A stretch of 60,041 bases of DNA, filler included, from Basidiobolus ranarum (lineage: Eukaryota): NCBI GenBank assembly GCA_040143965.1. It is 6 parts of 6 records of this genome, joined end to end, with 100 filler letters (N's around TTAATTAATTAA, not from the genome) between each part and the next. Parts side by side here need not be neighbours in the genome. Positions count along the whole stretch, not along the records: positions 50,152 to 60,041 come from JASJQH010000767.1; 5 more parts are not named here. The stretch is one strand, 5' to 3'. The position numbers and the translations under genes are program-made. The notes under the pieces were generated by a model. It did no database searches, was not told the DNA's origin, and was given only the letters and a program-made list of their open reading frames with translations. Shown one piece after another: positions 9,961 to 57,542 of the stretch (positions are counted from its first letter, which is position 1; each line of letters opens with the position of its first letter).

Positions 9961-10060
9961 NNNNNNNNNNNNNNNNNNNNNNNNNNNNNNNNNNNNNNNN
10001 NNNNTTAATTAATTAANNNNNNNNNNNNNNNNNNNNNNNNNNNNNNNNNNNNNNNNNNNN
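9961..10060. other. Artificial contig-joining spacer N44-TTAATTAATTAA-N44
   Basis: Exactly 100 nt; the central 12-mer gives stops in all six frames; repeated identically five times in the window. Confidence 0.98.
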
Positions 10061-20012: not shown

Positions 20013-20112
20013 NNNNNNNNNNNNNNNNNNNNNNNNNNNNNNNNNNNNNNNNNNNNTTAATTAATTAANNNNNNNNNNNNNNNNNNNNNNNNNNNNNNNN
20101 NNNNNNNNNNNN
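20013..20112. other. Artificial contig-joining spacer
   Basis: N44-TTAATTAATTAA-N44. Confidence 0.98.
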
Positions 20113-30053: not shown

Positions 30054-30153
30054 NNNNNNNNNNNNNNNNNNNNNNNNNNNNNNNNNNNNNNNNNNNNTTA
30101 ATTAATTAANNNNNNNNNNNNNNNNNNNNNNNNNNNNNNNNNNNNNNNNNNNN
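30054..30153. other. Artificial contig-joining spacer
   Basis: N44-TTAATTAATTAA-N44. Confidence 0.98.
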
Positions 30154-40058: not shown

Positions 40059-40158
40059 NNNNNNNNNNNNNNNNNNNNNNNNNNNNNNNNNNNNNNNNNN
40101 NNTTAATTAATTAANNNNNNNNNNNNNNNNNNNNNNNNNNNNNNNNNNNNNNNNNNNN
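40059..40158. other. Artificial contig-joining spacer
   Basis: N44-TTAATTAATTAA-N44. Confidence 0.98.
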
Positions 40159-45185: not shown

Positions 45186-48111
45186 ATGATGGAACGCACT
45201 AGTATTATATTTCAGCTAGCTATTATTGAAGGATGCCAACTGCCAGTCAAAGGTAGAGGTGGCAGCTCTGACCCTTTCGTAGTGGTACACTTTAACGGTA
45301 AAAAATATCGAACCGCCGTAGTACGACGCAACTTGAACCCTGTCTGGAATGCAGTGTTCAATTTCTCTGTGGAAGCATCCGATTTTCCCTTTTCTATGAA
45401 GTTACTTTGTTGTAGTAAAGATCGCATTCGTAAGAACTACATTGGCGAAGTCTGCTTGTCCACCCATCACTTGGTATCTGGAGAGCTCCCTAAGACTTGG
45501 GAACGAAGTGAGATTGAAGATCTTCAACTCGTGAATCATAAAAACAAGAATGAGAATCCAGGTTTTATCAAAATTAGATATGGTTTTGTCACGAGTGAGG
45601 ATGATATATGTGATTTCGTTTCTTGGAAGCCTATTTGGGATGCTTTTGCTGCTCAAAGTTTTCCTGTCTACACAAATTTATACCGGTCAAAACAAGAATC
45701 CAATGGATACTTGTCCTCTTCAACAGAGGATTTCAGTGAGACTATGAGAGAGCTTAGTGGTAAGTGATTATTCTTAAGCGTGCTAACGATTGCATACGTC
45801 TAATACAGTTTTGGCCTCTTTGCCTCATTTTTTCATTACTTCGACGCAGAGGCTACCACTGAGCGCTTAATACTTGGTCACGAAGCATCGGATTCTGGTA
45901 CCTTGTTTGAGGGTAGTAGCAGTGACTCTTGTAGTGATTCTACTCCGACTGGAGTTGATACGAAAAATCCACTTCTAGGCGTAGTGTTTATAGATATTCT
46001 ATCCTCTAGTGATCTACCTTATGATAAGAATTTAACGCGTACATCATTTGATATGGATCCATTTGTTGTTATTACTCATGGTAGAGAAACATTCAAAACT
46101 CGATTTCTTCGACACACTCTTAATCCCATTTGGAATGAAAGACTTTGCTTTCACATTCGCCGTTCCTACTTGAATCACGTTGTCAAATTCTCAGTATACG
46201 ACCACGATAAGTTTAGTAATAATGATTTCATTGGGAGTTATACTGTGACGGTCAAGGAGTTGTTGAGTCTCCAGGGGCAAGCCGCTGATAGCCAAAACAC
46301 GGTAATGGTGGAGAAAACGGTTCCTTTAGTTCTGGCTAAAGATAAGTGGAGGGAATCTTTCAAATCCAATTTGACTATCCGTGCTTCTCTGAAGACTACA
46401 GATGAGTTAAGAAGTGCACTTTGGATGGCATTAATCAAGCAGCACGATTCCGATGAAAATGGCTCAATAAATCACTTTGAGATTTTGTCCTTGTTGGAAT
46501 ACTTGAAGACCATGGCCCCGGAGAAATTGGCAGATCAGATTTTTAAAGAATGTGGAAAATCTCCAAATGTTGATGAACTTTCGTTTACCGAACTCATTAC
46601 CGTCTTGGAATCTTATACTAGAGAAGAAGGCTCAAAAGCCAGTATTGAATGTGACGATTCATTAAGGAGTTCAGAATTACTTGAAGATCTAGATCTACGA
46701 AATAACACTATCTCCCACGGCGAAGCTTATCCTAGAGGACAAAAGATGTTTTATATCGATACATGTCCCATTTGTTGTAAATACGACCTTTCGATGTTGA
46801 GTGATGCTGATATTGTAACTCATGTTGCTATTTGTACCATGGAGGATCCTGAGATACGCGTAGAGCGCTTGATGGTGGGCGACTTTGTTACCGAAGCTTA
46901 CGCTCAACGTAAATGGTTTGCTCGTGCTGTAAATAGGTTAGGGTATGGGCGTTACCGAGTTGGACGGAATAACGCCAACATTATTGTTCAGAATAGAGCT
47001 ACTGGACAATTGATGGAAGAGAAAATCCCGGCATATATTCGACTTGGCATTCGTCTTTTGTATAAGAACATTGCTTCTAAATCGACTGTAGATACGAGAG
47101 CAAGTAGGCATTGATTCACTAACTATTTTGAGAATCGTAAAATATGTTACTCATCAGCTTGACTGTTTTTTTAGTTCGTCGACTGCTAAAAGCCACTTCG
47201 TTGAAACAAGGGAGAAAATTTAATGATCCAGCTTCTATTAGTAGCATTCGTCCTTTCATCCAATTTCATCAGATAAACACTGACGAAATTCGAGATCCTA
47301 TCGAATCATTTAAAAACTTTAATGAATTTTTCTATCGCAAACTCAAACCCGAGAGTCGTGTTCTCGTTGCACCAAATGACCCTAGAGTTGTGGTGTCACC
47401 TGCAGATTGTCGATGTACATGCTTCCCTACCACAAATAATGCCACACGTTTGTGGATCAAAGGAGAAGATTTCACGATTGCCCGCCTACTGGGCGAAACA
47501 TCCGAAGAAAATCAGGTTTTGGCTCAAATATTTGAAGATGGCCCACTAGTTATTTGCAGACTGGCTCCTCAAGACTACCATCGATTCCATTTCCCTGTGG
47601 ACGGACGAGTAAGGTCTCACCAGGCACTTGATGGCCAGTACTTTACCGTAAATCCCATGGCTATCCGAAGTGGTCTTGATGTCTACGGAGAAAACAAGAG
47701 AAACGTAACTATTATTGAAAGCGAGCAATTTGGCCTAGTTGCATTTGTATCTATTGGAGCGATGATGGTATGGAATGCTGTGAATACCACTATGAGTCTC
47801 ACTATTAACAAGAGTTTTTTGAACAACAGGTAGGCTCTATCGAACTGACTTGTGAGCCAGGTCAGCGTTATTCTCGCATGGATGAGTTTGGATACTTTGC
47901 ATTCGGTGGATCTACAATAGTTTTACTTTTCCAGCAAGGGATGGTTAAATTTGACACTGATTTGGTGGAGAATTCTCAACGCTCACTTGAAACACTGGTA
48001 TGTTGTGATAGTTGTTTCCGTATTACGTATGTTCTGTTTACTCATATCATTCTACAGATACAAGTGGGTAACTCCATAGGTATTAGACCTGACGCTCTGC
48101 GAATATCATAA
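45186..48111 (+). CDS. PSD2: Phosphatidylserine decarboxylase 2 (two C2 domains, EF-hand-like region, catalytic domain)
   Basis: C2 motifs SDPFVVV..LNPVWN and MDPFVVI..LNPIWN, FVTEAYAQRKW, FNEFFYRKLKP, SPADCR, RLAPQDYHRFHFP, IGAMMVGS and the FGGST self-cleavage motif. Confidence 0.95.
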
Positions 48112-50051: not shown

Positions 50052-50151
50052 NNNNNNNNNNNNNNNNNNNNNNNNNNNNNNNNNNNNNNNNNNNNTTAAT
50101 TAATTAANNNNNNNNNNNNNNNNNNNNNNNNNNNNNNNNNNNNNNNNNNNN
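50052..50151. other. Artificial contig-joining spacer
   Basis: N44-TTAATTAATTAA-N44. Confidence 0.98.
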
Positions 50152-52004: not shown

Positions 52005-52078
52005 TGTGACCTCATTTATTAAGACTATTTACAGCATAATTTTACATGGAGTGGCTGTTGACCATAATTTGGAGCTCC

Positions 52079-52976
52079 TTAAAGCTCGTCATGATTATGC
52101 TCAAACTGAGCAAAGCTTTTCATAGCTAGTTCATATTCTTCATCACGAAATACACTAAAAGCTTCCCAGAAAGCAAGATCACATTCTTTCTTCAATACAC
52201 CACCGATTATTTCTGGTACACGGGTATCTAGTCTATTTCCACCTAAACGTGCAGACTTCACCACTTCCTCCCTGTTTAGAGTGAACGGTTAGAATAATGA
52301 AAAGGAAATATCGTCCTGAGTGAAAGGGTATTTACATGCGAAGCATCAATTGTTGACGACCACTCTTGTTAATGTCGGGAATGGAAGTTCCCCATACAAC
52401 TCTGGCAACTCCACGATAGATACTTTGTGAGGCACACATAGGACACTTTTGGATAATATTAATATTTAAGCTTAAGACGTGGATAAGAAATGAAAATTCT
52501 TACTGGTTCACCGGTTGTGTAGAGAGTCTGATGGGACCAATCGAGTCCAGGGTTATTCATGTCGTCATTAGTGGGAGAAGGATACATCTGTGTACAACTA
52601 AGAGAGCAAGAAGAGTGAGAATATGTCTTATGTAAAATATTAATCAATGGTAATTACTTCCAAAAAGCAGCAGTCTCTCCTAAAATGAGAAAGGATGTTT
52701 AGAGGTGTTTGTGCAGATACAACTTAGTGTACATAACATACCGTGCATAAGCTTATTTTGCTTGTTACTGTTGGCACCGTAGCAAGAGATTTCGTTCTTT
52801 AGGTGATCTACAATTAGTGCACCAAAAGGAAACCCAGGATTATGCACTTTAGCAAAATCGAGAGCAATACGCATGTAGCATTCGTCGTTCTCTTGTTGAT
52901 TGGCAAATTTACAGGAGGATTCCGAACTACCAACGGCTAAGATAGTAAGAATGGCAACACGTAAGATTGATAACAT
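52079..52976 (-). CDS. Cytidine/dCMP-deaminase-fold zinc-dependent nucleobase/nucleoside deaminase (GuaD/TadA-like) with signal peptide and C-terminal HDEL
   Basis: Five exons: 52976-52742, 52679-52658, 52597-52504, 52445-52337 and 52271-52079. Spliced protein has YMRIAL..PFGALIV, HGETAA, LYTTGEPCPMC and RVVWGTSI, and ends HNHDEL*. Confidence 0.85.
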
Positions 52977-53253
52977 CGGAAGGAGGAATTGCTAGAAAGA
53001 TATGGAGCAATAGATAAGAGGGAACTTTTATATAGTTTTACATTTCCGGTTTAGGTAATTCATCGCCTAGCACAGATTTCATTTATCGGACTTAATTTGC
53101 GGGAGTTCATTCTCTATCACCACCACAAACACCACCATAAACCTGCTTGAGTGATACAAATACACCGTAACACTTGACTGGGAAGATAAGAGACTCTCGA
53201 ATATAAGCGGCTGATTTGAAAGTTACATTCCACAATTTCTTTTCGCTGCACAA
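52977..53253. promoter_or_regulatory. Putative bidirectional promoter between the deaminase and the purine permease, with four HGATAR sites
   Basis: 277 bp between divergent ATGs. HGATAR at 53012-53017 (+), 53083-53088 (-), 53114-53119 (-) and 53184-53189 (+). TATA-like elements near 53026-53034 (-) and 53201 (+). Confidence 0.55.
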
Positions 53254-55431
53254 ATGGAGGATCATAACAAAACCATTTGCGCTGCAGAAAAAAAGCTGGA
53301 GACCCCTATGTATCGCCCACTGCCTCCCTTGACACTGGCTGAAAAGTTCACCACCACAAGGGGATGGATTGGAGAGTACGATTACAAATCTCTTTGGTAA
53401 TGCTACCTCTGCTGTTCACTGTTGGTGATTGATATCTTACTAACGAATGGTCATATTCCTGCAGTATGCCCCGTATTCCATTCTTGAATCGTAGCCAAGT
53501 CAACAGATCGCCTTTCTATGGCCCTGATGATGAGATTCCTATTTCTGTGGCGCTTCTGATGGGCATTCAGCGTAAGTGCATGTTACATTTCAGTCTACAT
53601 CGAACTCCACCTAATATAGATCACCAAACCAGATTTCCTGGCTGTCATTGGTGGTATTATTAGTCCTACCATCATGATCAGTGGTGCTGGTGATACGTTT
53701 CTGAACTTGGACCAGGAAACGCGGTCTTATATGATATCTGCTTCACTTATTGTAAGTTTCCAACTATTCCCTACCATGTTTGTGCTGTATTAACCAAGAC
53801 CCTAACCCTAATGATTATCATTTAGATGTCTGGATTGATGAGGTAATCCATAACTCAATCGCATATACTTCCCACTGTACTGAATGTAGAGTAACCCTAA
53901 CTTTCCCACCAATTAGTATCGTTCAAATCGTTCGAATTCCCATTCCAAAAACTAAGTATTTCATTGGGGCTGGGTATGGAATTCCGACATACTTCTTCTA
54001 GAGTCCTGCTGGTACTAACCCATATTTTTGAACAAGGCTTCTTCAAATTACTGGTGTTGCCTTCTCCAATATCCCTGCTGCACAAGCAATGATTGGGACC
54101 ATGTATAAGAGTGGCACCTGTTCACGTGACCTTCAAGCAGATGGCTCATACCTCTATAATCCATGTCCTGATGCATTCGGTGCTATCCTTGGAACTCAGG
54201 TACATTCTATCGAAAAGAGGTTCAGCAATTTCCTTAAGCTAATGCTATTTCATAGATGCTTTGCGCTTCCATCGCCATTCTTATTAGTTTTTTACCTGCA
54301 CGCATTATGCGACGTATCTTTCCCAAAATGGTCACCGGTATTGTACTTACAGTTATCGGCGCTTCTCTCATCATTTCGGGTATGAAGAATTGGGCTGGTG
54401 GTACCGGTCCTTGTTCCGCTCGTCCTGATACCGGACTCTTCAGTAAATGCCCAACTATCAATGCACCTAACGCTTTTGAGTGGGGATCACCGGTGTATAT
54501 TGGCCTTGGAGCAAGTGTATTTTTGACCATCATAGTGATTGAGATGGTTGGGTCCATCTTTCTAAAGAACATATCAGTAGTTATTGGTCTTGCTGTTGGT
54601 AAGAAACCCTTTTTTATAGAACGATCAACTAGTTATTCATCCTCCACTTTAGGATGTATTTTAGGTGGAGTAACTGGGATGTTTGACTCATCCAGTATAC
54701 AGAGTGCACCAACCATCACCTTTCTGTGGACCAAAAGTTTCAAGCTTTCGGTGTATGGCCCTGGGATTATTCCCCTTCTGTTTGTCTACATTGACTTTCT
54801 CATCGAATGTATAGGTGATCTTACAGCTAACTGTGATGTTTCTGGAATTCCGGTGGAAGGACCTGACTTTGACTCTCGTATGCAAGGTGGTTTATTAGCG
54901 GACGGACTCTCAGGAGTTTTGAGTGGTGCGGCTACCTCCATGGGAGTAGTGACTTTTAGTCAAAATAATGGAGTGATTGCGGTGACACGATGCGCCTCAC
55001 GTATAGCCGGCTACGTTTGTGCGGGATTACTTATTATCTGCGGAATTTTCGCCAAAATCTCCGGTGCATTCTTGGCAATTCCATCACCGATCATGGGTGG
55101 TATGACAACATTTTTATTTGCATCAGTTGCAACCTCAGGTATTCGTATCCTTGGCTACTTGGATTGGACTCGACGTGATCGAATTATAGTAGCAGCTTCC
55201 CTTGCCATGGCTCTAGGGGTTGAGCTGGTTCCTGGGTGGTTCAGTCATGTTCTACCATCAACTTACAATGTAGCATTAGCTGGCCTCTATGAAGCCATTG
55301 AAACCATTGCTTCCACAGGGTATATTCTAGCAGGAATTATATCGATCTTTTTAAACTTAACCCTACCTGAAGACGAACCCATATACAAACCCGATGCTAA
55401 AAGAACCTTTTTCGACACGGAAAGTGCATGA
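53254..55431 (+). CDS. NAT/NCS2 family xanthine/uric acid permease (UapA/UapC-like), multi-exon
   Basis: N-terminal KFTTTRGWIGEYDY, TMS1 GIQH, YLYNPCPDAFGA, FPKMVTG, ECIGD, GGLLADG, NAT signature TFSQNNGVIAVTRCASR and GGMTTFLFASVATSG. Confidence 0.93.
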
Positions 55432-55996: not shown

Positions 55997-57542
55997 ATGC
56001 TTGAAGATATGGCTTCCGTAACTCCCCCTAACCAGACATTAAAAAAGGGTAAGCCTAAGAAAATGTGGCACGTACTAGGGCTTGACCCCATGTCCAAAGA
56101 TTTTCGTCACGAATTGAAACTTGCTCAAGGTATAGAAATTAGAGAACTCACAAGTCAACAATTGTCTAACCAAGTTTACCACTCACTTTTAGTTAGTGAA
56201 TATTTAAATAATAACGGACATACACTTCCAACCAAAGAATTGGAAAGAGTACTGACGAAATGTCGTTGGGATGTTGAAGACGCCATTTCCTTTCTAAAAG
56301 AATATGCAAAAGCTTCGGATGGGATTATAGTAGAAGTTCCAAAAAAGAACCAATTTAGAGGACCAAAGAACTCCCTTGGGACTAGTTGTTATATTGGTAA
56401 GTTGGACTACTCTCATTATGGATTTTTCTATTTTATTTACTTTGTGCTACATAGACAGTCTATTGTTCGCCATGTTTGGGACACATTCTTGTTACGATGG
56501 TTTGCTACGTCGACGTCATATTACCTCGGAACCAGCGCTCCATCTTCAAACGATTTGCCGATTGTATGTCAATCTACTTCGTTCTGGTACACATATTAGT
56601 AAAATTGTGGTGGAGATGATTCGCAGTGATTTGGACGCGTGTGGATGGAAAGGTGGGATATCCGAAGAATTTGGAGGATCTTTCGAAACCACACCTACTC
56701 AAGAAGATGCCACAGAACTTTTGCAGTTCTTTATGGAGGTTTTTCAACTACCATTCTTACCTTTGGGAGTAAAGCTTCATCATTACGGCGATATGGACGA
56801 CGATGACGGTAGAATTGTTACCGAACGTATCTTTCAATTGTCAATCAATAGCGAAGATACCTCCCTTGATTCTACCCAGCCCATACCATTGGAGAGTATT
56901 CTGGTCAATTACTTTTTTAACAACAAAGTTACCGGAATTCGTCGAAATGTCGAAAAACTAGGTTCTGAAGAGACTGTTGATGCTTGGTCAGTGATGGAAC
57001 TTCTTCCCTTCTACTCACCACAAAATGAATTAGGTGCTGACTTGGGAGCGCTTTCGACTGACTTTCCAGAACAAAATATCATCGTTCCTCTTTCATTAAA
57101 GCGATATGGAATCGATTCAGATGGAGGTTCAATTCGTATTGATCGTCGTGTAGATATTCCACCTTTAATCGACTTTAGTAGTTTTGTCAGTCATCAGTCA
57201 GATAATTCCAATGCGAAATATACGCTGGTGTTGAAATCAGCGGTTTGCCATTTAGGAACTAGTCTATCATCGGGACATTACATCTCCTACTCGGTTAATC
57301 CTAACGACTCGACCACCTGGTACAAACATGACGATCTTGAACATGGCCATCGACGAATTCGAAAATACCCCGCCAACAAATGCTTCGACGATATGTCCGC
57401 TAATGGATACCTATTCCTCTATCAACTTGTCTGTACCCCAGCTCAAGTGACATCAAGCGACTCCAAACACCAGATTCCCCCACCCGAGTACTACGATTCC
57501 AAGAAAAAATCCAAGGAACCATCCAGCTGCTTTCTGCAGTGA
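55997..57542 (+). CDS. Ubiquitin-specific protease (CYLD-like USP) with a UBA/CUE-like N-terminal helix bundle and a C-terminal CaaX
   Basis: Intron 56397-56454 joins the Cys box NSLGTSCYI|DSLLFAMF. Also QEDATE, His box AVCHLGTSLSSGHYISY, WYKHDD and GYLFLY; ends KKKSKEPSSCFLQ*. Confidence 0.88.

What the first reader, a model, noticed from the sequence alone, without database searches (positions are those of the whole stretch)
52079..52976. Nucleobase deaminase with a signal peptide and an HDEL ER-retention signal
Seen: hydrophobic N-terminus MLSILRVAILTILAVGSSES and a C-terminus ending exactly HNHDEL-stop, around an intact catalytic core whose HxE motif is split by an intron ahead of a 22-nt microexon (52679-52658). 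Established: HDEL is the fungal ER retrieval signal read by Erd2, and CDA-fold deaminases are normally cytosolic or nuclear. Inference: an ER-luminal deaminase, implying purine or pyrimidine chemistry in the secretory lumen (for example disposal of nucleosides from nucleotide-sugar turnover) or a retained pool released on demand.
Basis: partly seen in the sequence, partly recalled or inferred. Interest (0 to 1): 0.78.

Follow-up and report, generated by a model that had tools for sequence, protein, structure and literature searches.

The report
ER-tagged purine-type deaminase beside xanthine permease
A small fungal zinc deaminase gene carries both a secretion signal and an HDEL ER-retention tail, and it sits head-to-head with a xanthine/uric-acid transporter gene, which suggests that purine bases are deaminated outside the cytosol.

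Summary
On the minus strand, five exons (52976-52742, 52679-52658, 52597-52504, 52445-52336, 52271-52079) give a 217-aa CDA-fold deaminase with intact HGE and PCPMC motifs. It has a hydrophobic N-terminal leader and ends HNHDEL-stop.

The spliced protein aligns end to end with annotated proteins of Basidiobolus, Umbelopsis and Mucorales at 64-85% identity. In the fungal clade, 14 of 31 rows end in an xDEL-like tail; 7 of these are strict [KRH]DEL. Leaders, seven cysteines and two N-glycosylation sequons are conserved.

New here: the gene shares a 277-bp divergent promoter with a UapA-type uric acid-xanthine permease. The same linkage recurs on shared contigs in 6 of 16 named species and on 2 unnamed contigs. 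Amoebozoan relatives are secreted or surface-anchored.

Best reading: a secretory-pathway deaminase of free bases, probably guanine-like, held in the ER by HDEL. Localisation and substrate are untested. No RNA data or SignalP were available. My searches found no paper describing this family.

The parts
52079..52976 (-). Whole deaminase gene from ATG to TAA: 5 exons, 4 introns, 654-nt CDS, 217 aa.
   Evidence: Full-length alignment to orthologues.
52917..52976 (-). Codons 1-20, the predicted signal peptide MLSILRVAILTILAVGSSES. It has an n-region with R6, a roughly 10-residue hydrophobic core, and small residues G/S/S/E/S before the conserved Cys22.
   Evidence: Kyte-Doolittle maximum 3.1 over 9 residues. 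Orthologues have non-conserved but hydrophobic leaders that end just before the invariant Cys.
52742..52976 (-). Exon 1 (235 nt): leader, conserved C22 and C33, the start of the deaminase domain up to His78, and the first base of Gly79.
   Evidence: PF00383 E 1.8e-4 on this exon alone.
52680..52741 (-). Intron 1 (62 nt, GTATGT..TAG). It splits the HxE motif.
   Evidence: Read-through ORFs of relatives break after 'LLHG'.
52658..52679 (-). 22-nt microexon encoding (G)ETAAFW(N), including catalytic Glu80.
   Evidence: The peptide HGETAAFWNCT is conserved in 16 of 17 aligned orthologue models.
52598..52657 (-). Intron 2 (60 nt, GTAATT..TAG).
   Evidence: Relatives' ORFs that end or continue '..AAFWK' show intron 2 retained at the same position.
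52504..52597 (-). Exon 3 (94 nt): N86-C-T sequon, family-specific insert YPSPTNDDMNNPGLDW, and TLYTTGEP.
52446..52503 (-). Intron 3 (58 nt, GTAAGA..AAG), phase 0, between P117 and C118.
52336..52445 (-). Exon 4 (110 nt): zinc ligands C118 and C121 (CPMC), and the N143-K-S sequon.
52272..52335 (-). Intron 4 (64 nt, GTAAAT..CAG).
52079..52271 (-). Exon 5 (193 nt including TAA): C-terminal helices, the ECD..FW motif, and the tail.
   Evidence: tblastn of P0001 and P0022 covers 52270-52091 and 52270-52103 respectively.
52082..52093 (-). Codons for H-D-E-L, directly followed by TAA (52079-52081).
   Evidence: xDEL-like ends in 14 of 31 fungal rows.
53029..53034 (-). TATAAA box 58 nt upstream of the ATG. 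The three upstream ATGs all lie beyond it.
52015..52020 (-). AATAAA polyadenylation-like signal 59 nt after the stop.
52977..53253 (.). 277-bp divergent intergenic region shared with the permease gene. It holds 4 HGATAR sites.
   Evidence: 4 sites against a window mean of 1.16 per 277 bp; 2.2% of sliding windows reach 4. No CGG-N6-CCG site.
53254..55431 (+). Head-to-head neighbour: a UapA-type uric acid-xanthine permease (NAT/NCS2) gene. Exon 1 runs from ATG 53254. The large last ORF is 54256-55431 and carries the motif FSQNNGVIAVTRCASR.
   Evidence: PF00860 E 6.5e-37. UapA structures E 1.6e-93 to 2.7e-92, with the motif aligned. The N-terminus is identical to P0122 of Basidiobolus ranarum.

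Best explanation
The gene encodes a catalytically competent zinc deaminase of the CDA fold, in the TadA / guanine-deaminase / yeast cytosine-deaminase branch.

The protein is made with a cleavable N-terminal signal peptide and enters the ER. It folds there, using conserved cysteines and two conserved N-glycosylation sequons. Because it ends in HDEL, the Erd2-type receptor retrieves it from the Golgi, so most of it sits in the ER or early secretory lumen.

It belongs to a compact family of extracytoplasmic deaminases found in early-diverging fungi and Amoebozoa.

It is divergently transcribed from a 277-bp promoter shared with a UapA-type xanthine/uric-acid permease, and that linkage is conserved in distant fungi. 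From this I infer that it acts on a free base, not on nucleic acid. The most likely substrate is guanine or a guanine-like 2-amino-oxo heterocycle, deaminated to a xanthine-like product that the partner permease carries across the membrane into the cytosol.

Shown: gene structure, catalytic motifs, fold, conservation of leader and xDEL, and linkage with the permease.
Inferred: signal-peptide cleavage, ER residence, glycosylation and disulfides, substrate identity, and functional coupling to the permease.
For: Gene model and motifs.

Family and fold:
- PF00383 E 3.1e-15 on the closest full-length orthologue P0001.
- AlphaFold model of P0001 with a 97-sequence alignment: pLDDT 90.9, pTM 0.85, disordered tail.
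- Foldseek top hits are TadA (E 3.8e-10, TMt 0.79), NE0047 guanine deaminase (4.4e-9), Arabidopsis guanosine deaminase and yeast cytosine deaminase.
- The best PDB sequence hit is yeast cytosine deaminase, E 1.1e-7, over the whole domain.

Secretory features:
- The leader has a hydrophobicity maximum of 3.1, against about 1.6 for leaderless bacterial relatives.
- Leaders are present in 25 of 30 database fungal models.
- All 7 Cys and both sequons (N-C-T, N-K-S) are invariant or nearly so in 17 orthologues.
- The region upstream of internal Met35 is conserved as coding sequence (C27, D36 and C38 are invariant).
- The mature protein is acidic, pI 5.3, unlike what I recall for RNA-binding TadA.

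xDEL-like ends: 14 of 31 fungal rows, including all 4 complete rows of the Basidiobolus+Umbelopsis clade (HDEL, RDEL, KDEL, RQEL). The tails in front of the motif vary in length and sequence.

Permease pairing:
- PF00860 and UapA match with the QNNG..TR motif.
- ATG-to-ATG distance is 278 bp.
- Deaminase and permease share a contig of identical length in B. meristosporus (41,900), Cunninghamella echinulata (26,478), Chlamydoabsidia (439,900), Fennellomyces (753,873), Gongronella (541,263) and Parasitella (403,333). They also share two unnamed contigs of 4,690 and 12,187 bp.
- 4 GATA sites lie in the shared promoter.

Relatives in dictyostelids and unnamed eukaryote-like metagenome ORFs carry leaders, with Cys/His-rich or hydrophobic GPI-like tails.
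Against:
- 17 of 31 fungal rows lack any xDEL-like end. The closest orthologue model, P0022, ends AHEH, although that model is also N-terminally truncated.
- Amoebozoan relatives look secreted or surface-anchored, not ER-retained. UapA-type permeases are plasma-membrane importers in the species where they were studied (recalled). Both facts would fit an extracellular site of action better than the ER.
Only the top 120 permease hits were listed.
- Substrate assignment is indirect. By sequence the nearest solved enzyme is a cytosine deaminase, not a guanine deaminase.
- Bacterial relatives give no purine context: CIA30, DUF1499 or DUF2165 neighbours, and no NCS2 permease among 41 ORFs scanned.
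- The contig-length argument shows co-location, not orientation.
Confidence: 0.55

Rival explanations
1. The enzyme works mainly outside the cell, in the medium, wall or periplasmic space. It converts an external base into the permease's substrate. The HDEL tail is leaky, saturable or only a brake on release.
For: More than half of the fungal orthologues lack xDEL (17 of 31). Amoebozoan relatives have secretion or surface-anchor features. One orthologue is named 'secreted cytidine and deoxycytidylate deaminase' by its annotators (P0032). The paired permease is a UapA-type importer. Linkage to the permease occurs with xDEL (window, P0001, P0021) and without it (P0007, P0012, P0019, P0038).
Against: Strict [KRH]DEL or close variants recur in 14 rows, behind tails of variable sequence. 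That is hard to explain without selection for retrieval.
Confidence: 0.25
2. The substrate is a pterin or folate, not a purine base. [quoted passage not shown]
For: Dictyostelid relatives exist in secreted-type and hydrophobic-tail forms (P0041; P0347 of Acytostelium). Folate deaminase is described as secreted and cell-surface (PMC4794234, passages) and as 'yet to be cloned' (PMC8616412, passage). From chemistry I recall, not from a call here: the pterin 2-amino-4-oxo ring is chemically like that of guanine.
Against: No direct evidence. The characterised pterin deaminases in the papers listed are amidohydrolase-fold enzymes (abstract of PMC13197243 in the listing). The reported size of about 40 kDa exceeds the roughly 27 kDa of these proteins unless they are glycosylated. 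The fungal partner gene is a xanthine/urate permease.
Confidence: 0.1
3. It is a nucleic-acid deaminase, for RNA/DNA editing, defence or a toxin, that is kept in the secretory pathway, like the secreted AID/APOBEC-like SNADs.
For: The top structural neighbours are tRNA deaminases TadA and ADAT2. There are Pfam side-hits to the toxin-type MafB19 and Bd3614 deaminase families. SNADs set a precedent for deaminases with signal peptides that may act in the ER (PMC5889660, passages).
Against: - The TadA equivalog scores 31.9 bits against a cutoff of 150.
- The Bd3614 hit is below its cutoff.
- The mature protein is acidic (pI 5.3).
- Conservation is very high (64-85% identity across phyla), with no lineage-specific expansion, unlike arms-race deaminases.
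- There is conserved linkage to a nucleobase permease.
Confidence: 0.07
4. It is a gene-model artefact. Translation starts at Met35, or a different last exon is used, so the protein is an ordinary cytosolic deaminase and HDEL is a coincidence.
For: Three public orthologue models start at the equivalent internal Met (P0022, P0029, P0035). No RNA data were available.
Against: - ATG 52976 is the first ATG downstream of the TATA box.
- The segment before Met35 is conserved as protein, including invariant cysteines.
- Leaders recur in 25 of 30 models.
- The xDEL recurrence cannot be chance.
- The last exon is one open frame up to the stop and aligns with orthologues.
Confidence: 0.03

Closest known systems
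Yeast cytosine deaminase Fcy1 (PDB 1OX7, 1P6O, 1UAQ, 8VLL)
   Same: Best PDB hit by sequence (E 1.1e-7 to 2.6e-7) over the whole domain. Shared elements are G-x-N, LHGE, the N-C after the catalytic helix, TLYTT and PCxMC. Same fold.
   Different: Only a distant match. Fcy1 is 158 aa with no leader and no HDEL. The new family has 'EPC' where Fcy1 has 'SPC', a 16-residue insert (YPSPTNDDMxNPGLDW), extra C-terminal helices, extra cysteines and N-glycosylation sequons.
CDA-fold guanine and guanosine deaminases (NE0047: 2G84, 4HRW; Arabidopsis GSDA: 7DBF)
   Same: Structural neighbours with TMt 0.69-0.76 and E 4e-9 to 5e-8. The Asn of G-x-N is conserved. Their product, xanthine, would fit the neighbouring permease. 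ESM Atlas look-alike clusters carry the automatic name 'guanine deaminase' (a lead only).
   Different: Sequence identity is about 20%. Sequence E-values are only 0.003-0.006 for GSDA. I could not map the substrate-contact residues. Those enzymes are cytosolic.
tRNA adenosine deaminases TadA / ADAT2
   Same: Top Foldseek hits (7CPH E 3.8e-10, TMt 0.79). The 'EPCxMC' motif is shared.
   Different: The NCBIfam TadA equivalog scores 31.9 bits against a cutoff of 150. The new protein is acidic, has a leader and HDEL, and pairs with a permease.
[quoted passage not shown]
   Same: These are deaminase-fold proteins with N-terminal signal peptides. Their authors propose that they act in the ER or extracellular space (passages read).
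   Different: They belong to a different clade (AID/APOBEC) with presumed nucleic-acid substrates, rapid evolution and lineage-specific expansions. [quoted passage not shown]
Secreted adenosine deaminase ADA2/ADGF (recalled, not tested)
   Same: An extracellular purine-deaminating enzyme with a signal peptide.
   Different: It has the amidohydrolase (TIM-barrel) fold, acts on adenosine, and has no ER-retention tail. This comparison rests on memory only.
Bacterial 'nucleoside deaminase' relatives (e.g. P0064, P0066, P0071, P0073)
   Same: 34-40% identity to P0001, with the same motifs (HGE, TLYTTGEPCPMC, Q154). Some carry twin-arginine-like leaders by a crude pattern; about 20 of the 66 listed do.
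   Different: Many start directly at the domain. Their neighbours are CIA30, DUF1499 or DUF2165 proteins, not permeases. They lack the eukaryote-specific cysteines and sequons.

Membership tests
CDA / dCMP_cyt_deam_1 zinc deaminase superfamily (PF00383) | H-x-E catalytic motif and P-C-x-x-C zinc motif in the alpha/beta deaminase fold. | tested here: met
   HGE at residues 78-80 and PCPMC at 117-121 of the spliced protein. PF00383 E 3.1e-15 and 56.4 bits against a cutoff of 25 on orthologue P0001. Exon 1 alone scores 21.8 bits. Model pLDDT 90.9 with deaminase-fold neighbours.
tRNA adenosine(34) deaminase TadA (NCBIfam NF008113 equivalog) | Score above the curated equivalog cutoff. | tested here: not met
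   31.9 bits (P0001) and 27 bits (P0013) against a cutoff of 150.
Yeast-type cytosine deaminase (Fcy1) | Close sequence kinship, and the C-terminal helix residues that close the cytosine pocket. | tested here: inconclusive
   It is the best PDB sequence hit, but only at E about 1e-7, and the Foldseek rank is 49. The C-terminal pocket residues were not mapped.
CDA-fold guanine deaminase (bGD / NE0047 type) | Substrate-orienting Asn plus an acidic residue after strand 4, and a C-terminal tail that caps the site. | tested here: inconclusive
   The Asn of G-A-N is nearly invariant. D146 is invariant in fungi only. Structural similarity is TMt about 0.7. No residue-level superposition was available.
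Soluble ER-resident proteins retrieved by the Erd2/KDEL receptor | N-terminal signal peptide. | tested here: met
   By sequence criteria only: a basic n-region, a 10-residue hydrophobic core (Kyte-Doolittle 3.1) and small residues before Cys22. No SignalP run was possible.
Soluble ER-resident proteins retrieved by the Erd2/KDEL receptor | C-terminal [KRH]DEL-type tetrapeptide exposed at the extreme C-terminus. | tested here: met
   HDEL is immediately followed by the stop. The tail is disordered in the orthologue model, pLDDT below 50 for the last residues. The motif recurs in 14 of 31 fungal rows.
Soluble ER-resident proteins retrieved by the Erd2/KDEL receptor | Actual steady-state ER localisation that depends on the tail. 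| not testable with these tools
   This needs tagging with and without HDEL.
NAT/NCS2 uric acid-xanthine permeases, UapA type (the neighbouring gene) | PF00860 domain and the NAT signature Q-N-N-G-x-x-x-x-T-R. | tested here: met
   PF00860 E 6.5e-37. UapA chains E 1.6e-93, with FSQNNGVIAVTRCASR aligned to FAQNNGVIALTRCANR.

The most novel reading that the evidence does not exclude
Early-diverging fungi and Amoebozoa may possess a previously unrecognised luminal or extracytoplasmic branch of purine metabolism. In it, a CDA-fold deaminase inside the secretory or endomembrane lumen converts guanine-type bases to xanthine-type products, and a dedicated UapA-type permease then moves the products into the cytosol.

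That would supply the intravesicular guanine deaminase plus UapA exporter that has been hypothesised for purine-crystal storage vacuoles in algae (PMC12541418, passages read). It could also account for the xanthine crystals reported in Amoebozoa (bioRxiv 10.1101/2022.01.11.475817, passages read).

Probability: 0.15. Interest if true: 0.85.

Novelty: new variant of a known kind. Interest (0 to 1): 0.62.

Why it matters
Nucleobase salvage and catabolism are treated as cytosolic processes. A conserved, catalytically intact base deaminase that is routed into the secretory pathway, tagged for ER retrieval in many species, and genetically paired with a xanthine/urate permease would put one purine-handling step on the other side of a membrane.

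This gives a concrete, testable candidate for three open questions:
- How filamentous early-diverging fungi use external or compartmentalised guanine as a nitrogen source.
- Which enzymes act inside purine-storage compartments.
- Through the amoebozoan relatives, which gene encodes Dictyostelium folate deaminase, an enzyme central to self-generated chemotactic gradients.

There is also a practical point. The 22-nt microexon that carries the catalytic glutamate is mishandled in several public gene models.

Tried and rejected
- Whole-genome search of the window's genome: none is held.
Splice junctions and the terminal exon therefore rest on homology and consensus only.
- First structure prediction, with 17 close orthologues: too poor to use (pLDDT 60.9). 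It was replaced by a 97-sequence alignment.
- Metagenome scan for fungal loci to check gene order: it returned only bacterial-type relatives at 30-45% identity, 21 loci.
  - Their neighbours were CIA30-domain proteins in 7 of 14 loci examined, DUF2165 in 3 and DUF1499 in 2.
  - None of the 41 ORFs scanned was a permease. I scanned 41 of the 108 ORFs listed, chosen as those nearest the hit.
  - This gave no substrate clue.
- NCBIfam gave no equivalog.
- UaY-type CGG-N6-CCG sites in the shared promoter: none.
- Literature:
  - 'deaminase + HDEL + signal peptide + fungi' returned 1 irrelevant paper.
  - 'secreted + deaminase + Mucorales + signal peptide' returned 5 irrelevant papers.
  - 'guanine deaminase + signal peptide + secreted' returned 15, none on this family.
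  - 'deaminase/KDEL/ER lumen/nucleobase' returned 39, with none relevant among the 15 listed.
  - 'UapA/guanine deaminase/divergently' returned 14, none on this pair.
  - Iyer et al. 2011 (PMC3239186, term search only) does not mention Dictyostelium, Rhizopus or 'endoplasmic'.
  - One search failed on term syntax and was not repeated.
  - Supplements of these papers were not read.
- Homodimer prediction was not run. I make no binding claim.
- Rejected: read-through of exon 1 without splicing. It stops 23 codons after His78-Gly79, before any catalytic Glu.
Full report
**1. The observation**

The minus strand between 52976 and 52079 holds a five-exon gene.

| Feature | Coordinates | Length |
|---|---|---|
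| Exon 1 | 52976-52742 | 235 nt |
| Exon 2 (microexon) | 52679-52658 | 22 nt |
| Exon 3 | 52597-52504 | 94 nt |
| Exon 4 | 52445-52336 | 110 nt |
| Exon 5 (with TAA) | 52271-52079 | 193 nt |
| Introns 1-4 | all GT..AG | 62, 60, 58, 64 nt |

- The CDS is 654 nt, giving 217 aa.
- ATG 52976 is the first ATG of an open frame that begins just after a stop. It lies 58 nt downstream of a TATAAA box. All three upstream ATGs lie beyond that box. An AATAAA signal follows the stop by 59 nt.
- The product starts MLSILRVAILTILAVGSSES and ends HNHDEL.
- His78 is the last full codon of exon 1, the Gly79 codon is split, and catalytic Glu80 lies in the microexon. The zinc motif is also split, with P117 in exon 3 and C118-P-M-C121 in exon 4.
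- Without splicing, exon 1 runs into a stop before any Glu.

**2. Support for the gene model from relatives**

- The spliced protein, computed by coordinates in a script, aligns end to end with annotated proteins:
  - 76.7% identity to P0001 of Basidiobolus meristosporus.
  - 85.2% to its truncated paralogue model P0022.
  - 64-78% to Umbelopsis and many Mucorales.
- Only one copy is in the window.
- Several unnamed ORFs of relatives break exactly where introns 1 and 2 lie. They read '...LLHG' followed by unrelated residues, or '...HGETAAFWK' followed by a stop or unrelated residues. So the microexon and both flanking intron positions are old.
- Some public models mishandle the microexon. P0020 reads LLHEQSGQL-RCT and P0038 carries an insert there.
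- Direct RNA evidence for this organism could not be obtained.

**3. What the protein is**

- Pfam gives PF00383, at E 3.1e-15 on P0001 and E 1.8e-4 on exon 1 alone.
- A first AlphaFold run with 17 close orthologues was poor (pLDDT 60.9). With 97 sequences it reached pLDDT 90.9 and pTM 0.85, with a low-confidence C-terminal tail.
- Foldseek places it among TadA/ADAT2, the CDA-fold guanine deaminase NE0047, Arabidopsis guanosine deaminase and yeast cytosine deaminase.
- By sequence the best solved relative is yeast cytosine deaminase, at E about 1e-7.
- The TadA equivalog model is far below its cutoff, 31.9 against 150 bits.
- The protein therefore belongs to the branch of the superfamily that holds both free-base and tRNA deaminases. 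It is a member of none of the characterised families.
- The mature protein is acidic (pI 5.3, 22.4 kDa).

**4. Secretory features are a family trait**

- In 17 aligned orthologues the N-terminal 20-45 residues are not conserved in sequence but are hydrophobic. They end just before an invariant Cys.
- 25 of 30 database fungal models have such a leader. The other 5 start at an internal Met or are otherwise mis-modelled at the N-terminus.
- All seven cysteines of the window protein are invariant in the 17 aligned orthologues. The two sequons (N86-C-T, N143-K-S) are invariant or nearly so.
- Leaderless bacterial relatives lack the N-terminal cysteines and the T/S of the first sequon.

**5. The HDEL end**

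- In a tree of 37 rows the fungal proteins form one clade of 31 rows (support 96/90), with amoebozoan sequences next to it.
- Rows left out of the tree: fragmentary ORFs (P0002, P0004, P0005, P0008, P0010, P0015, P0024, P0037, P0040, P0047, P0052-P0054, P0056, P0088) and the fused model P0026, which ends HEEL.
- 14 of the 31 rows end in [KRH][DETQ]E[LF]: HDEL x3, RDEL x3, KDEL, HEEL x3, HTEL, KTEL, RQEL and HDEF. 7 of these are strict [KRH]DEL.
- The label needs at least 4 and most parsimoniously 7 changes on the tree, so it is labile.
- The window groups with B. meristosporus and then Umbelopsis (100/99). All four complete rows of that group carry such an end.
- The tails in front of the motif differ in length and sequence. 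P0001 is 22 residues longer. This pattern is expected for a signal, not for a structural element.
- The other 17 rows end differently, often ...CVT[VM]P[FL]xx. These are probably released forms.

**6. The neighbour**

- 278 bp from the deaminase ATG, on the other strand, starts a gene (ATG 53254) whose large ORF 54256-55431 is a PF00860 permease.
- It matches Aspergillus UapA structures at E 1.6e-93. The NAT signature FSQNNGVIAVTRCASR aligns with UapA's FAQNNGVIALTRCANR.
- Its N-terminus is identical to P0122 of Basidiobolus ranarum. The 95.4% identity of the ORF is accounted for by an 18-residue intron read-through. The window is therefore B. ranarum or a very close relative.
- Using contig lengths reported with the protein hits as contig identifiers, a deaminase and a permease sit on the same contig in:
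  - B. meristosporus (41,900 bp).
  - Cunninghamella echinulata (26,478).
  - Chlamydoabsidia padenii (439,900).
  - Fennellomyces sp. (753,873).
  - Gongronella butleri (541,263).
  - Parasitella parasitica (403,333, with paralogue P0038).
  - Two unnamed contigs of 4,690 and 12,187 bp.
- In 10 other named species the listed lengths differ: Mucor hiemalis, Benjaminiella, Sporodiniella, four Rhizopus species, Mucor saturninus, Helicostylum and Phycomyces. Only the top 120 permease hits were shown.
- Orientation in those genomes could not be checked.
- The shared 277-bp promoter in the window holds 4 HGATAR sites, against 1.16 expected. 2.2% of sliding windows reach 4. This is a weak hint of nitrogen regulation.

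**7. The wider family**

- A profile search of 1.84 billion representatives found 16 clusters at E<=1e-30 and 260 at E<=1e-10.
- Beyond fungi, the close relatives are from the dictyostelid Heterostelium (P0041) and from unnamed eukaryote-like ORFs. These have leaders and Cys/His-rich tails. More distant ones have a hydrophobic GPI-like tail, one of them from Acytostelium (P0347).
- Bacterial 'nucleoside deaminases' follow at 34-40% identity. Some have twin-arginine-like leaders and many have none.
- Their gene neighbourhoods (CIA30, DUF1499, DUF2165) say nothing about purines.

**8. Mechanism proposed**

- Shown: an intact catalytic core, a conserved leader, a recurrent retrieval motif, and conserved linkage to a xanthine/urate permease.
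- Inferred:
  - The protein enters the ER, is glycosylated and disulfide-bonded, and is retrieved by the HDEL receptor.
  - It deaminates a free base on the luminal or extracytoplasmic side.
  - Its product is what the partner permease carries.
- Guanine to xanthine is the simplest fit. 8-Oxoguanine to urate, cytosine, or pterins remain possible.
- HDEL retrieval is saturable (textbook knowledge, recalled), so the tail may act as a dosage or release control.
- The main rival is an essentially extracellular enzyme.

**9. Comparison with what is known**

- The family is not described in the papers I could search. Searches are listed under Tried and rejected.
- Krishnan et al. 2018 (PMC5889660, passages read) state that SNADs and dictyosteliid AADs are unique among eukaryotic deaminases in being secreted. 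This suggests the present family had not been noticed as secretory.
- Database names are generic ('cytidine deaminase-like'). One entry is called 'secreted cytidine and deoxycytidylate deaminase' (P0032).
- Two published ideas make the finding more interesting:
  - An intravacuolar guanine deaminase with UapA exporters has been hypothesised for algal guanine-storage vacuoles (PMC12541418). Xanthine crystals are reported in Amoebozoa (bioRxiv 10.1101/2022.01.11.475817).
  - Dictyostelium folate deaminase is secreted and cell-surface (PMC4794234) and was still uncloned in 2021 (PMC8616412).
- Both links are speculative.

**10. Verdict**

- The ER-lumen reading is plausible and partly supported by conservation.
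A purine-permease-coupled role replaces it.
- This is a new variant of a known enzyme kind, of moderate to high interest. It needs cDNA, localisation and substrate assays.

Noticed in passing
window 53254-55431 (+): A UapA-type uric acid-xanthine permease gene lies head-to-head with the deaminase, 278 bp from ATG to ATG. The linkage recurs on shared contigs in 6 of 16 named fungal species and on 2 unnamed contigs.
   Followed up: yes
window 52977-53253: The shared promoter holds 4 HGATAR (GATA-factor) sites, against 1.16 expected per 277 bp. It has no CGG-N6-CCG site.
   Followed up: partly
P0041-P0046, P0051, P0058, P0244, P0245, P0347, P0348 (protein ids): Amoebozoan-type relatives carry leaders, an extra N-terminal C..PC..C motif, and either Cys/His-rich tails (CGC..H) or a hydrophobic GPI-like tail. 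[quoted passage not shown]
   Followed up: partly
P0020, P0038, P0022, P0029, P0035, P0034, P0026: Public gene models of orthologues are often wrong around the 22-nt microexon, or start at an internal Met and so lose the leader. One model is fused to a Zn2Cys6-type protein (P0026, 981 aa).
   Followed up: partly
P0059 and P0121 of Basidiobolus ranarum: These are two distant paralogues (about 36% identity) that also carry leaders. P0121 ends KLEL. They form a separate long branch with a C-terminal CP.GC...C motif, which is also seen in P0327.
   Followed up: no
L001, L002, L004, L005, L006, L010, L012: In bacterial-type metagenome contigs the related deaminase gene is followed, often with overlapping stop and start, by a gene for a 191-193-aa CIA30-domain protein. 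Other loci pair it with DUF2165 or DUF1499.
   Followed up: partly
window 45804-48111 (+) and 56334-57542 (+): The neighbouring genes are a C2-domain phosphatidylserine decarboxylase (PSD2-like) and a ubiquitin C-terminal hydrolase.
   Followed up: no
window 9961-10060, 20013-20112, 30054-30153, 40059-40158, 50052-50151: Paired 44-base runs of N occur about every 10 kb. They look like masking or withheld stretches and not a biological feature.
   Followed up: no
tree: The Basidiobolus proteins group with Umbelopsis (100/99) inside a poorly resolved Mucorales assemblage, not outside it. The cause may be limited resolution or gene transfer between lineages. The tree is midpoint-rooted only.
   Followed up: no
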